Shown: piece by piece, positions 11,498 to 12,035 of the stretch
Layout of the letters: each line of letters begins with the position of its first letter
Numbering within the stretch: position 1 is the stretch's first letter
Assembly (NCBI GenBank): GCA_038087875.1
Contig: CM075996.1
Location: 2,358,001 to 2,422,000, forward strand
Reading direction: 5' to 3'
DNA length: 64,000 bases
Source of the DNA: Malacoraja senta
Taxonomy: Eukaryota
Made by a program: the position numbers and the translations under genes
The notes under the pieces: model-generated
The model's database searches: none
Told to the model about the DNA's origin: nothing
Seen by the model: only the letters and a program-made list of their open reading frames with translations

Positions 11498-11511
11498 CCA
11501 AATCTGGGTCT

Positions 11512-11647
11512 TCTTCTTGCCTATGGCGTGCACAGCCTAAATTTGTAGGACACCTTGTTCTATTTGATCTTATTTGATTGTGCACACCGGGTTGATTGCA
11601 TTCGTCGAAACAGGGCGGACCACGTGAAGGTTGCAATCTCCCACCCC
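11512..11647 (-). mobile_element. Ribozyme-headed short non-autonomous retroposon (~136 bp) with (GAA)n tail
   Basis: 12-bp TSD aaatctgggtct at 11500-11511 and 11648-11659. A second, degenerate copy lies at 39594-39689. Confidence 0.85.
11594..11647 (-). ncRNA. Minimal HDV-like (delta-like) self-cleaving ribozyme, 54 nt
   Basis: GGGGUGG(P1) GA GAUUGCA(P2) ACC(P3) UUCACGU(L3) GGU(P3') CCGCCCU(P1') G UUUCGA C GAA UGCAAUC(P2'). All helices pair by hand, with a G1-U wobble and a C-G-A-A J4/2. Confidence 0.85.
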
Positions 11648-12035
11648 AAATCTGGGTCTGATGAAGGGTGTAGGAAGGAACTGCAGATGCTGGTTTACAC
11701 CAAAGATAGACACAAAATGCTGGGGTAACTCAGCGGGACAGGCAGTATCTCTGGAGGGAAGGAATGGGTGATGTTTCGGGTCGAGAGATGTCTGAAGAAG
11801 GGTCTTGACCTGAAACGTCACCCCTTCCTTATAGCCAGAGATGCTGCTTGTCCCGCTGAGTTACTCCTGCATTTAGTGTCCATCTCTGATGAAGGGTCTT
11901 GACTAGAAACGTTACTTATACCCTCTCCAAAGATGCTGCCTGGCCCGCGGGGTTACTCCAGCACTTTGTGTGTTTTGCTGAAGATTGCGGCAGCTGCAGT
12001 TCCTTGTGGTGATTGCGTTTGTTGTTGCTTTCCAG

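What the first reader, a model, noticed from the sequence alone, without database searches (positions are those of the whole stretch)
11500..11659. A ~136-bp retroposon whose head is a complete minimal HDV-like ribozyme
Seen: on the minus strand the element reads GGGGUGG-GA-GAUUGCA-ACC-UUCACGU-GGU-CCGCCCU-G-UUUCGA-C-GAA-UGCAAUC. P1 (7 bp, opening G-U wobble), P2 (7 bp, perfect), P3 (3 bp), a 7-nt L3 with a possible single C-G P1.1 pair and a C-G-A-A J4/2 all fall in HDV double-pseudoknot order. P4 is reduced to a UUCG loop. G1 (11647) abuts the 12-bp TSD exactly. There is no tRNA, 5S or 7SL head. Established: HDV-like ribozymes define the 5' ends of R2, RTE and L1Tc/Ingi retrotransposons, and P4 is dispensable. 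Inference: this is a SINE-like family that cuts itself out of host read-through transcripts instead of using a Pol III promoter. I do not know of one described in cartilaginous fish.
Basis: partly seen in the sequence, partly recalled or inferred. Interest (0 to 1): 0.92.

Follow-up and report, generated by a model that had tools for sequence, protein, structure and literature searches.

The report
Ribozyme-headed short retroposon in a skate
A 139-base jumping element, present about 2,400 times in this skate-like genome, begins exactly with a stripped-down hepatitis-delta-type self-cutting RNA fold that closely resembles the mammalian CPEB3 ribozyme, so it most likely trims its own 5' end out of longer transcripts.

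Summary
On the minus strand, 11647→11594 fits a complete HDV-type double pseudoknot. A strict descriptor finds it once in the window and never in 19.2 Mb of shuffles.

It heads a real retroposon family. The head 30-mer pattern has 2,439 matches and the tail 30-mer 2,514 exact matches in the genome. Copies have target-site duplications and (AAG)n tails. In a 3'-anchored sample, 35 of 40 copies start at G1–G3.

RTE-like LINEs in the same genome start with full-length versions of the same ribozyme. These versions score up to 64 bits on Rfam's CPEB3 model, whose cut-off is 35. Across families the single-stranded core is the same while P1, P2 and P3 change in a compensated way. Models trained without this family rank its head first in the window.

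Ribozyme-headed non-autonomous LINE derivatives are already known, so this is a new variant. It lacks P4, has a CPEB3-type core, sits in a cartilaginous fish and is very abundant. The CPEB3 likeness outside mammals is the most interesting by-product.

The parts
11648..11659 (-). Upstream copy of the target-site duplication (AGACCCAGATTT). The repeat can be read 2 nt further into the G-run.
   Evidence: 14-nt exact direct repeat flanking the element.
11594..11647 (-). 54-nt minimal HDV/CPEB3-type ribozyme head, with the predicted cleavage 5' of G1 = 11647.
   Evidence: Descriptor: 1 hit in the window, 0 in shuffles. CM R1 gives 18.4 bits and R2 24.3 bits, both top hits end to end. Covariation with sister families.
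11641..11647 (-). P1 5' strand (GGGGUGG).
   Evidence: Pairs with 11612-11618. MFE fold.
11632..11638 (-). P2 5' strand (GAUUGCA). J1/2 (GA) lies at 11639-11640.
   Evidence: 7 Watson-Crick pairs with 11594-11600. 6 of 7 P2 pairs covary across families.
11619..11631 (-). P3 (ACC/GGU) enclosing L3 UUCACGU. C22 (11626) is the P1.1 partner.
   Evidence: L3 is identical to the Rfam CPEB3 consensus L3 shown. P3 covaries.
11612..11618 (-). P1 3' strand (CCGCCCU).
11605..11611 (-). G37 and U38 (P1.1: G-C plus U.U, as described for CPEB3), followed by a 5-nt linker that stands where P4 is in the full-length relatives.
   Evidence: Alignment A2. Subfamily variation in the linker. CPEB3 P1.1 description in PMC4836649 (passage).
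11601..11604 (-). J4/2 CGAA. C44 (11604) is the predicted catalytic cytosine.
   Evidence: C, A and A are invariant in A2; the second position varies G/U/C.
11594..11600 (-). P2 3' strand (UGCAAUC).
11525..11593 (-). Body with no detectable LINE similarity. It is closed by a long-range stem (GGUGUGCAC at 11580-11588 with GUGCACGCC at 11525-11533).
   Evidence: Fold of the 139-mer. BLAST of the bodies against LINE A and the LINE-B-type element finds only the tail.
11509..11524 (-). 3' terminal motif and (AAG)n tail (AUAGGCAAGAAGAAGA here; family consensus AUACGCAAG(AAG)n).
   Evidence: An older subfamily ends in ACACGAAAGAAGAAGA, identical over 16 nt to the end of a LINE-B-type element.
11500..11511 (-). 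Downstream copy of the target-site duplication. It overlaps the tail by AGA.

Best explanation
The element is a non-autonomous, SINE-like retroposon (139 nt plus an (AAG)n tail). Its first 54 nt are a P4-less member of the HDV/CPEB3 ribozyme fold.

Shown:
- It is a young family of about 2,400-2,500 copies with target-site duplications and microsatellite tails.
- Its copies begin at G1 of the fold.
- RTE-like LINEs in the same genome begin with full-length versions of the same ribozyme and end in the same kind of tail.
- The helices covary between families while the single-stranded core stays fixed.

Inferred:
- The element has no promoter of its own and is transcribed as part of longer host or neighbouring transcripts.
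- The head folds co-transcriptionally and cleaves 5' of G1, with C44 as the catalytic base and G1.U36 at the active site. This gives an RNA that starts with an intact ribozyme.
- The reverse transcriptase of an RTE-like LINE recognises the short 3' stem and the ...ACG(A/C)AAG(AAG)n end, and copies the RNA into new sites by target-primed reverse transcription.
- Because the ribozyme lies downstream of its own cut, every full-length copy inherits it.
For: Family and ends:
- The head 30-mer pattern (window sequence with the last base set to V, not T), with at most 1 mismatch, has 2,439 matches; nearly all are the exact window 30-mer. The reversed control has 0.
- The 3' 30-mer has 2,514 exact matches against 0 in the control. 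The near-equal counts argue that few copies are 5'-truncated.
- 3'-anchored sample (the first 40 of the 100 places listed, all on contig C1): starts at position 1 in 27 copies, position 2 in 7, position 3 in 1, elsewhere in 5.
- In 61 further copies (biased samples), 55 start at position 1, and 44 of these have an exact TSD of at least 7 nt ending within 3 nt of G1.

Fold:
- Descriptor hits: 1 in the window, 0 in 19.2 Mb of shuffles.
- Rfam CPEB3_ribozyme searched on the whole genome gives 39 of 60 listed matches over the 35-bit cut-off, best 64.2 bits. No other ribozyme family matched 9 of these loci at E<=0.01; the one other hit was an unrelated mir-297 match in L035.
- LINE A is 3.14 kb with one 940-aa ORF carrying endonuclease and RT domains. 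It starts at G1 of its ribozyme right after the TSD and ends ...GACACGAAAAG(AAG)n.
- Alignment of 12 heads from 7 families or subfamilies: 93.0% of cells paired against 39-50% when slid; covariation score 0.606 against 0.210 shuffled (0 of 500 shuffles as high); 6 of 7 P2 pairs, 3 of 7 P1 pairs and 2 of 3 P3 pairs changed on both sides; C22-G37 invariant.
- Models built from 24 heads that exclude this family place it first in the window, spanning exactly 11647-11594.

Other support:
- No tRNA, no Rfam match on the element's own strand, and no B box.
- Precedent that P4 is dispensable: minimal HDV-like ribozymes 'lack the P4 domain' and theta ribozymes self-cleave in vitro (preprint 10.1101/2023.06.13.544163, abstract and passage).
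- CPEB3 P1.1 is one G-C plus a U-U pair, as here (PMC4836649, passage).
Against: - No cleavage assay exists, and there is no RNA-end evidence.
- Rfam's own models do not report this head at E<=10.
- The two independent models give only modest scores (18.4 and 24.3 bits), with roughly calibrated E-values.
- The family's helices are invariant among its own subfamilies, so all covariation is between families. Part of that invariance is forced by the 29-mer used to collect copies.
- No LINE with this family's own helix sequences and a full P4 was found. The 28 zero-mismatch hits of the pattern designed for it were all SINE copies.
- Similarity to the candidate partner LINEs outside the head is only a 12-16 nt tail.
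- A sharply defined 5' end could also come from a transcription start at G1.
- Only 17 of 35 full-length sampled copies still satisfy all pairs and core bases. That is expected for dead copies but says nothing about activity.
Confidence: 0.72

Rival explanations
1. The head is a ribozyme-derived relic that keeps the fold but no longer cleaves. Its 5' end is set by transcription starting at G1 from an internal promoter. Alternatively the same DNA serves as both promoter and ribozyme, as Pr77/L1TcRz does in trypanosome L1Tc and NARTc.
For: - About 2,400 copies is a lot for an element that depends on read-through. By comparison, only 11 LINE A heads and 37 heads of the sister short family match their 30-mers with at most 1 mismatch.
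- P4 is missing and activity is untested.
- A dual promoter/ribozyme head is documented for L1Tc/NARTc (PMC3383444, abstract in the listing).
Against: - No Pol III A or B box, tRNA, 5S or 7SL signal.
- All 13 single-stranded core bases (L3, G37-U38, CGAA) are identical to the CPEB3 consensus, and every helix pair is intact in the consensus. A mere promoter would not be expected to keep this.
- 7 of 40 copies lack only G1, which fits reverse transcription running to the end of a defined RNA under either model.
Confidence: 0.17
2. The fold is kept mainly as a protein-binding or translation/priming structure for the LINE machinery, as the R2 5' pseudoknot binds R2 protein. Cleavage would be secondary or absent.
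For: The review PMC6765202 (passage) states that R2 protein binds a pseudoknot within the conserved HDV-like ribozyme. The head is the only part this family shares in kind with the LINEs, besides the tail.
Against: A non-coding 139-nt element has nothing to translate. The catalytic C and the G.U at the cleavage site are conserved in all families aligned. This role does not exclude cleavage.
Confidence: 0.08
3. The match is a chance look-alike: an ordinary retroposon whose first 54 nt happen to fit the descriptor.
For: Rfam gives no hit on this copy. The folding energy of the nested part is not better than shuffles (z = 0.92).
Against: 0 descriptor hits in 19.2 Mb of shuffles. Top CM hit in the window with models that never saw it. 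Core identical to, and helices compensated against, heads that pass Rfam's CPEB3 cut-off by up to 29 bits.
Confidence: 0.02

Closest known systems
HDV-like ribozymes at the 5' ends of non-LTR retrotransposons (R2, RTE, Baggins/LOA, L1Tc/ingi; Ruminski et al. 2011, Eickbush & Eickbush 2010, Sanchez-Luque et al. 2011)
   Same: Nested double pseudoknot placed so that cleavage creates the element's first nucleotide. The element lacks its own promoter and is released from co-transcripts (review PMC6765202, passages). LINE A and LINE B of this genome are ordinary examples.
   Different: The window's element is non-coding and 139 nt long. Its ribozyme has no P4, and its helix sequences match no LINE found here. 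Ruminski 2011 itself was not held, so I could not check whether similar short elements are listed there.
Ribozyme-headed non-autonomous derivatives: R2 SIDEs (PMC3414825), NARTc (PMC3383444), 'bipartite nonautonomous LINEs' of RTE, Ingi and R2 (PMC5786205)
   Same: LINE 5' end with ribozyme plus LINE 3' end, no ORF, mobilised in trans (abstracts; passages). A true bipartite derivative of LINE B, with full ribozyme, start of the ORF and tail, lies in L116.
   Different: Here the body is not recognisably LINE-derived. Only 12-16 nt of tail are shared, the head has lost P4, and the family outnumbers full-length LINE A heads about 200-fold.
Mammalian CPEB3 ribozyme (Rfam RF00622)
   Same: L3 UUCACGU...CCCUGU after P1, and CGAAU at J4/2-P2 are identical to the Rfam consensus. 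P1.1 is one G-C plus U.U (PMC4836649). P1 opens GGGG with G.U.
   Different: CPEB3 is a single-copy intronic element reported only in mammals (PMC8233481, passage). This one is a multi-copy retroposon head in a skate, lacks P4, has different P1 (distal), P2 and P3 sequences, and does not reach the Rfam threshold.
Minimal (P4-less) HDV-like ribozymes: drz-Mtgn (Riccitelli et al. 2014) and theta ribozymes of gut phages
   Same: About 50-60 nt, with the P4 domain absent. Self-scission is shown for theta ribozymes (preprint 10.1101/2023.06.13.544163, abstract and passage).
   Different: Those come from metagenomes or phages and sit next to tRNAs. This one is eukaryotic, heads a retroposon, and clearly derives from P4-bearing relatives in the same genome. 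Riccitelli 2014 was seen only as a citation.
Ribozyme-bearing SINE-like elements with other ribozymes (Schistosoma Sm-alpha hammerhead SINEs; retrozymes)
   Same: A short non-autonomous retroelement that carries a self-cleaving motif (PMC6765202, passage).
   Different: Those use hammerhead ribozymes, Pol III or tandem/circular RNA strategies. Here a single HDV-type ribozyme defines the 5' end of dispersed single copies.

Membership tests
HDV-like (delta-like) self-cleaving ribozymes | Nested double pseudoknot: P1 and P2 crossing, P3 inside, P1.1 between L3 and the base after P1 | tested here: met
   All of P1 (7 bp), P2 (7 bp), P3 (3 bp) and C22-G37 are present. Descriptor unique in the window, 0 hits in shuffles. 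Covariation for P1, P2 and P3 across families.
HDV-like (delta-like) self-cleaving ribozymes | Catalytic cytosine in J4/2 directly before the P2 3' strand, and a G.U wobble at the cleavage-site end of P1 | tested here: met
   C44-G-A-A precedes P2 3', and G1.U36 is present. The C is in a nearly invariant column (at least 90%) and the AA are invariant in alignment A2; G.U is found in 8 of the 10 rows that have letters at that pair.
HDV-like (delta-like) self-cleaving ribozymes | P4 helix (present in classical members, absent in 'minimal' ones) | tested here: not met
   A 5-6 nt linker stands where relatives have an 18-40 nt P4 hairpin. P4 is not required by the family definition.
HDV-like (delta-like) self-cleaving ribozymes | Site-specific self-scission 5' of G1 giving a 5'-OH product | not testable with these tools
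   Indirect only: 35 of 40 3'-anchored copies start at G1-G3. No RNA run with raw reads was available.
Rfam RF00622 CPEB3_ribozyme | Score at or above the curated gathering threshold (35 bits) | tested here: not met
   No RF00622 match to the window copy even at E<=10 or at gathering. Sister families in the genome do pass: 36-64 bits.
Canonical SINE | Head derived from tRNA, 5S or 7SL RNA with an internal Pol III promoter (A and B boxes) | tested here: not met
   ARAGORN finds none. No Rfam family matches the element's own strand at E<=10. No GWTCRANNC match in a copy. The only A-box-like match straddles the flank. The box consensus sequences are recalled.
Canonical SINE | Short, non-coding, dispersed, with TSDs and a LINE-type 3' tail | tested here: met
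Bipartite non-autonomous LINE / SIDE | The 5' end and the 3' end are both copied from one parent LINE, with the interior deleted | tested here: inconclusive
   The head is of the same ribozyme type as LINE A and B, but with different helices and no P4. The tail shares 12-16 nt, and the body is unrelated. No LINE carrying this family's helices was found. Only two LINE families were examined.
RTE-clade LINE (the proposed partner, LINE A) | About 3.2 kb, a single ORF with an N-terminal AP-endonuclease and RT, very short UTRs, a short-repeat tail | tested here: met
   3.14 kb shared among 5 copies, a 940-aa ORF, Pfam Exo_endo_phos + RVT_1, an (AAG)n tail.
RTE-clade LINE (the proposed partner, LINE A) | Placement inside the RTE clade in an RT phylogeny | not tested
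   The homologues found carry no clade names. No reference RT set was available.

The most novel reading that the evidence does not exclude
The P4-less head is a fully active, promoter-independent 5'-processing module, and shedding P4 helped this family become by far the most successful of a guild of CPEB3-type ribozyme-headed RTE elements in skates. In addition, the mammalian CPEB3 intronic ribozyme, so far without any outgroup, is an exapted head of this same retroposon lineage. One skate family (D) shares with the Rfam CPEB3 consensus not only the core but nearly the same P1, P2 and P4 helix sequences, although these helices are free to covary between families.
Probability: 0.35. Interest if true: 0.8.

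Novelty: new variant of a known kind. Interest (0 to 1): 0.63.

Why it matters
Three reasons.

1. It gives a natural eukaryotic example of a minimal, P4-less HDV-type ribozyme with an evident job. [quoted passage not shown]

2. It shows a short retroposon reaching thousands of copies with a ribozyme in place of the usual Pol III head. This bears on how SINE-like elements arise from RTE-type LINEs (compare PMC5786205).

3. The genome holds many retroposon heads that pass Rfam's CPEB3 model. [quoted passage not shown] These families could supply such outgroups and make the origin of the CPEB3 ribozyme testable.

Tried and rejected
- Rfam on the window. Nothing at gathering. No ribozyme family near the element at E<=10; the hits there are miRNA-like matches to a neighbouring hairpin repeat.
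- Earlier notes of this scan. Nothing by sequence, place or words that bears on this.
- RNA evidence. No RNA holder listed. The four runs laid were Logan contigs only, so they give no starts, ends or strand.
- A LINE carrying this family's own P1-P3 with a full P4. The pattern ending in 'not T' gave 28 exact hits. All 28 are short-family copies with variant linkers or small deletions.
- Similarity of the body to LINE A or to the LINE-B-type element. Only the 12-16 nt tail matches.
- Weak CM hits elsewhere in the window. 34657-34744 is a GGTCCC-type microsatellite and 36037-36136 is an unrelated repeat end. Both are chance.
- An orthologous ribozyme in a CPEB gene. CPEB ZZ-domain exons lie on contigs C2259, C2128, C15 and C17, and none of the 60 listed RF00622 matches is on those contigs. 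Only 59 candidates were scored, so this decides nothing.
- Papers. Ruminski et al. 2011 (PMC3308841) is not held. No supplements were read.
- Repeat libraries. Dfam and Repbase could not be consulted, so prior annotation of the family in a repeat library is untested.
- Literature searches for a ribozyme-headed SINE or a CPEB3-like ribozyme in cartilaginous fish found none. The library lacks most subscription journals.
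Full report
**The observation**

Read on the minus strand, window 11647→11594 is GGGGUGG-GA-GAUUGCA-ACC-UUCACGU-GGU-CCGCCCU-G-UUUCGA-CGAA-UGCAAUC. This gives:
- a 7-bp P1, with G1.U36 and U5.G32 wobbles;
- a 7-bp all-Watson-Crick P2;
- a 3-bp P3 and a 7-nt L3;
- a C22-G37 P1.1 pair;
- C44-G-A-A directly before the P2 3' strand.

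The nested part (P1+P3) is the minimum-energy fold of the 54-mer. Its energy is no better than shuffles (z = 0.92), but the pseudoknot is not scored there.

I wrote a strict descriptor: P1 of 7 bp opening with G.U, P3 of 3 bp, C at L3 position 3, G after P1, C-N-R-A, P2 of 7 bp, J1/2 of 0-3 nt and a linker of 5-60 nt. It hits once in both strands of the window, at this site, and never in 150 dinucleotide shuffles of the window (19.2 million strand-bases).

The element is flanked by a 14-nt exact direct repeat (AGACCCAGATTTGG).

ARAGORN finds no tRNA. On the element's own strand Rfam finds nothing at E<=10; the only overlapping hit is a chance snoU82P match on the opposite strand (10.1 bits against a gathering score of 42). 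A copy contains no B-box match.

**It is a real, large, young retroposon family**

The window's own assembly is 1.94 Gb.
- The head 30-mer pattern (the window sequence with its last base set to 'not T'), allowing 1 mismatch, occurs 2,439 times. Nearly all of these are the exact window 30-mer. The reversed control gives 0.
- A 30-mer from the 3' part occurs exactly 2,514 times, against 0 in the control.

Thirty loci from a BLAST-type search and 30 from the head pattern show the same picture. There is unique flank, then a target-site duplication, then GGGGTGG..., then a 139-nt unit, then an (AAG)n/(AGA)n tail, then the same duplication. Of 64 HSPs, 3 partial ones were skipped. Of the remaining 61, 55 start at position 1, and 44 of these have an exact duplication of at least 7 nt ending within 3 nt of G1.

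Those samples favour full-length heads. I therefore fetched the first 40 of the 100 listed places of the 3' 30-mer, all on contig C1, regardless of their 5' side. The element starts at position 1 in 27 copies, position 2 in 7, position 3 in 1 and elsewhere in 5 (positions 20, 38, 89, 100, 100). The one at 38 is an internal deletion. No copy shares sequence upstream of G1. Mean identity to the consensus in this sample is 94.5%.

Contigs of four coded public runs from four coded organisms cover 11508-11650 at 90% identity or more but not the unique flanks. The family therefore appears to be shared by related organisms. The window copy's private differences from the family consensus show up there as 'other letters'.

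**The same ribozyme heads LINEs in this genome**

Rfam's CPEB3_ribozyme model (RF00622, cut-off 35 bits) searched over the assembly gave 60 listed matches from 59 scored candidates. Of these, 39 are over the cut-off and the best scores 64.2 bits. On nine such loci no other ribozyme family matched at E<=0.01; the only other hit was an unrelated mir-297 match in L035. The matches fall into families.

LINE A:
- It begins GGGGATC-AA-GGTAGAA-GCG-TTCACGT-CGC-GATCCCT-GT-[8-bp P4 hairpin]-CGAA-TTCTACC, directly after a target-site duplication.
- It runs 3.14 kb with one 940-aa ORF carrying Exo_endo_phos and RVT_1 domains.
- It ends ...GACACGAAAAG(AAG)n.

By architecture this is an RTE-type LINE. I did not test the clade by phylogeny, and its homologues (about 50-60% identity in amphioxus, sea urchin, insects, fishes and a lizard) carry no clade names.

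LINE B has a longer P4 and J4/2 CUAA. One copy, L116, is an internally deleted element: ribozyme, about 190 nt, then ...GGACACGAAAG(AAG)n.

Families D and E carry further versions.

A second short family ('SINE2', about 180 nt, TSDs, (AAG)n tail) has a P4-less head with the same spacing as the window's element...CCCTG-TTTCCA-CCAA-TCTTTCC. It just passes the Rfam cut-off at 36.3-36.5 bits.

Counts of head 30-mers with at most 1 mismatch are 11 for LINE A, 37 for SINE2 and 2,439 for the window's family.

**Comparative support for the fold**

A MAFFT alignment was made of 12 heads: three subfamilies of the window's family, LINE A, LINE B, two D, two E, one other and two SINE2. I scored it against the full pseudoknotted structure.
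- 93.0% of cells are paired, against 39-50% when the 3' partners are slid by 1-3 columns.
- The covariation score is 0.606 against 0.210 in shuffles (0 of 500 shuffles as high).
- 11 of 18 pairs are changed on both sides: 6 of 7 in P2, 3 of 7 in P1 and 2 of 3 in P3.
- C22-G37 is invariant.

Rows within a family are not independent, so the signal is between families. The window's family differs from LINE A at P1 positions 5-7, at five of seven P2 pairs and at two of three P3 pairs, always with compensation. L3 (UUCACGU), G37-U38 and CGAA are identical to LINE A and to the Rfam CPEB3 consensus printed.

As an independent test I built two covariance models from 24 heads that exclude the window's family. 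Searched with filters off over the whole window, both rank 11647→11594 first, matched end to end. With P1/P3/P4 modelled the score is 18.4 bits, E 0.026, next hit 10.1 bits. With P2/P3/P4 modelled the score is 24.3 bits, E 9e-4, next hit 14.4 bits. The E-values are roughly calibrated. The runner-up hits are a microsatellite and an unrelated repeat.

Subfamilies have UUUCGA, UGUCGA or UAUCGA, SINE2 has UUUCCA, and J4/2 is CGAA or CUAA. It is a short linker.
- The single G-C P1.1 followed by U opposite U is exactly what is described for CPEB3 (PMC4836649, passage).
- The body folds into a long-range stem, GGUGUGCAC with GUGCACGCC, just before the tail.
- Apart from the head type, similarity to the LINEs is limited to the end. 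An older subfamily ends in ACACGAAAGAAGAAGA, identical over 16 nt to the LINE-B-type element. LINE A matches over 12-14 nt.
- I found no LINE with this family's own helices. All 28 exact hits of a pattern designed to catch one were short-family variants.

**Mechanism**

Shown:
- a dispersed, TSD-flanked, microsatellite-tailed short family;
- 5' ends at G1;
- a head homologous in kind to LINE heads that pass a curated ribozyme model;
- compensated helices and a fixed core.

Inferred:
- The element is transcribed within longer transcripts.
- The head cleaves 5' of G1.
- An RTE-like reverse transcriptase supplied in trans uses the 3' stem and tail for target-primed reverse transcription.
- The ribozyme, lying downstream of its cut, is inherited by each full-length copy.

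That P4 is dispensable is established for minimal HDV-like ribozymes. I put 0.72 on this account. The main rival (0.17) is that the head no longer cleaves and a transcription start, or a dual promoter/ribozyme as in L1Tc Pr77, sets the end.

**What is known, and novelty**

HDV-like ribozymes at the 5' ends of R2, RTE, LOA and ingi elements are established, as is their use by non-autonomous derivatives (R2 SIDEs, NARTc). [quoted passage not shown] Kojima (PMC5786205, passage) links the ribozyme to 'bipartite nonautonomous LINEs' of RTE, Ingi and R2. The kind is therefore known.

What I did not find in print in the held library:
- a P4-less HDV-type ribozyme as a retroposon head;
- any such element in cartilaginous fish;
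- CPEB3-type ribozymes outside mammals.

Ruminski 2011 was not held, and Dfam and Repbase could not be consulted. Both could reduce the novelty.

The host is a skate-like batoid by a RERG-like exon at 28271-28834, which is 97% identical to a skate protein.

**Verdict**

This is a new variant of a known kind. Interest is moderate to high, mainly because the genome's ribozyme heads, family D above all, look like relatives of the mammalian CPEB3 ribozyme. A 2021 paper reports that no outgroup for that ribozyme exists (PMC8233481).

Noticed in passing
L098:301-368(-), L060:301-368(-), L051:303-370(+), L059:301-368(-): A repeat family ('D') whose head is about three-quarters identical to the Rfam CPEB3 consensus. 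It has nearly the same P1 (GGGGGCC), P2 (AGCAGGA against AGCAGAA) and P4 (CAGAUUCU...GAAUCUG), and scores 43-51 bits against a 35-bit cut-off. Its body and ends were not worked out.
   Followed up: partly
L061:114-3248(+) and four more copies (L062-L065): A 3.14-kb RTE-like LINE ('LINE A') with a CPEB3-type ribozyme as its first 73 nt, one 940-aa endonuclease+RT ORF and an (AAG)n tail. Only 11 heads in the genome match its 30-mer with at most 1 mismatch.
   Followed up: partly
L116:~90-380(+): An internally deleted LINE-B-type element of about 290 nt: a full-length ribozyme whose 5' P1 is truncated in this copy, the start of the ORF, and the tail GGACACGAAAG(AAG)n. This is a classical bipartite non-autonomous LINE in the same genome.
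   Followed up: partly
L050:301-480(-) and about 20 further loci (L041-L049, L100-L102, L104, L111-L115): A second short family ('SINE2', about 180 nt) with TSDs, an (AAG)n tail and its own P4-less ribozyme head. P1 is 6 bp, with two variants differing by one C in the P1 3' strand. 37 heads match its 30-mer with at most 1 mismatch.
   Followed up: partly
window 11662-11870: An extremely abundant repeat directly upstream of the insertion. It forms a long hairpin that draws sub-threshold miRNA-like Rfam hits. Its contig word depth in the public runs is roughly ten times that of the short retroposon. Other copies of the retroposon (L002, L077) have inserted into the same repeat.
   Followed up: no
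window 28271-28834 (-): An exon of a RERG-like small GTPase, 97% identical to a skate protein and 77% to the elephant-shark one. This places the host among batoids.
   Followed up: partly
window 43900-44150 (approx.): A run that translates as X (masked or N bases) lies inside the window. Several long (CA)n/(CACT)n-type microsatellite tracts (about 5980-6465, 15500-16030, 34860-35890, 41820-43070) produce spurious long ORFs.
   Followed up: no
window 44936-45763 (-), 60784-61500 (-), 18512-19186 (-), 32526-33164 (+): Open frames that look like C-terminal parts of LINE reverse transcriptases of other families. They were not analysed.
   Followed up: no
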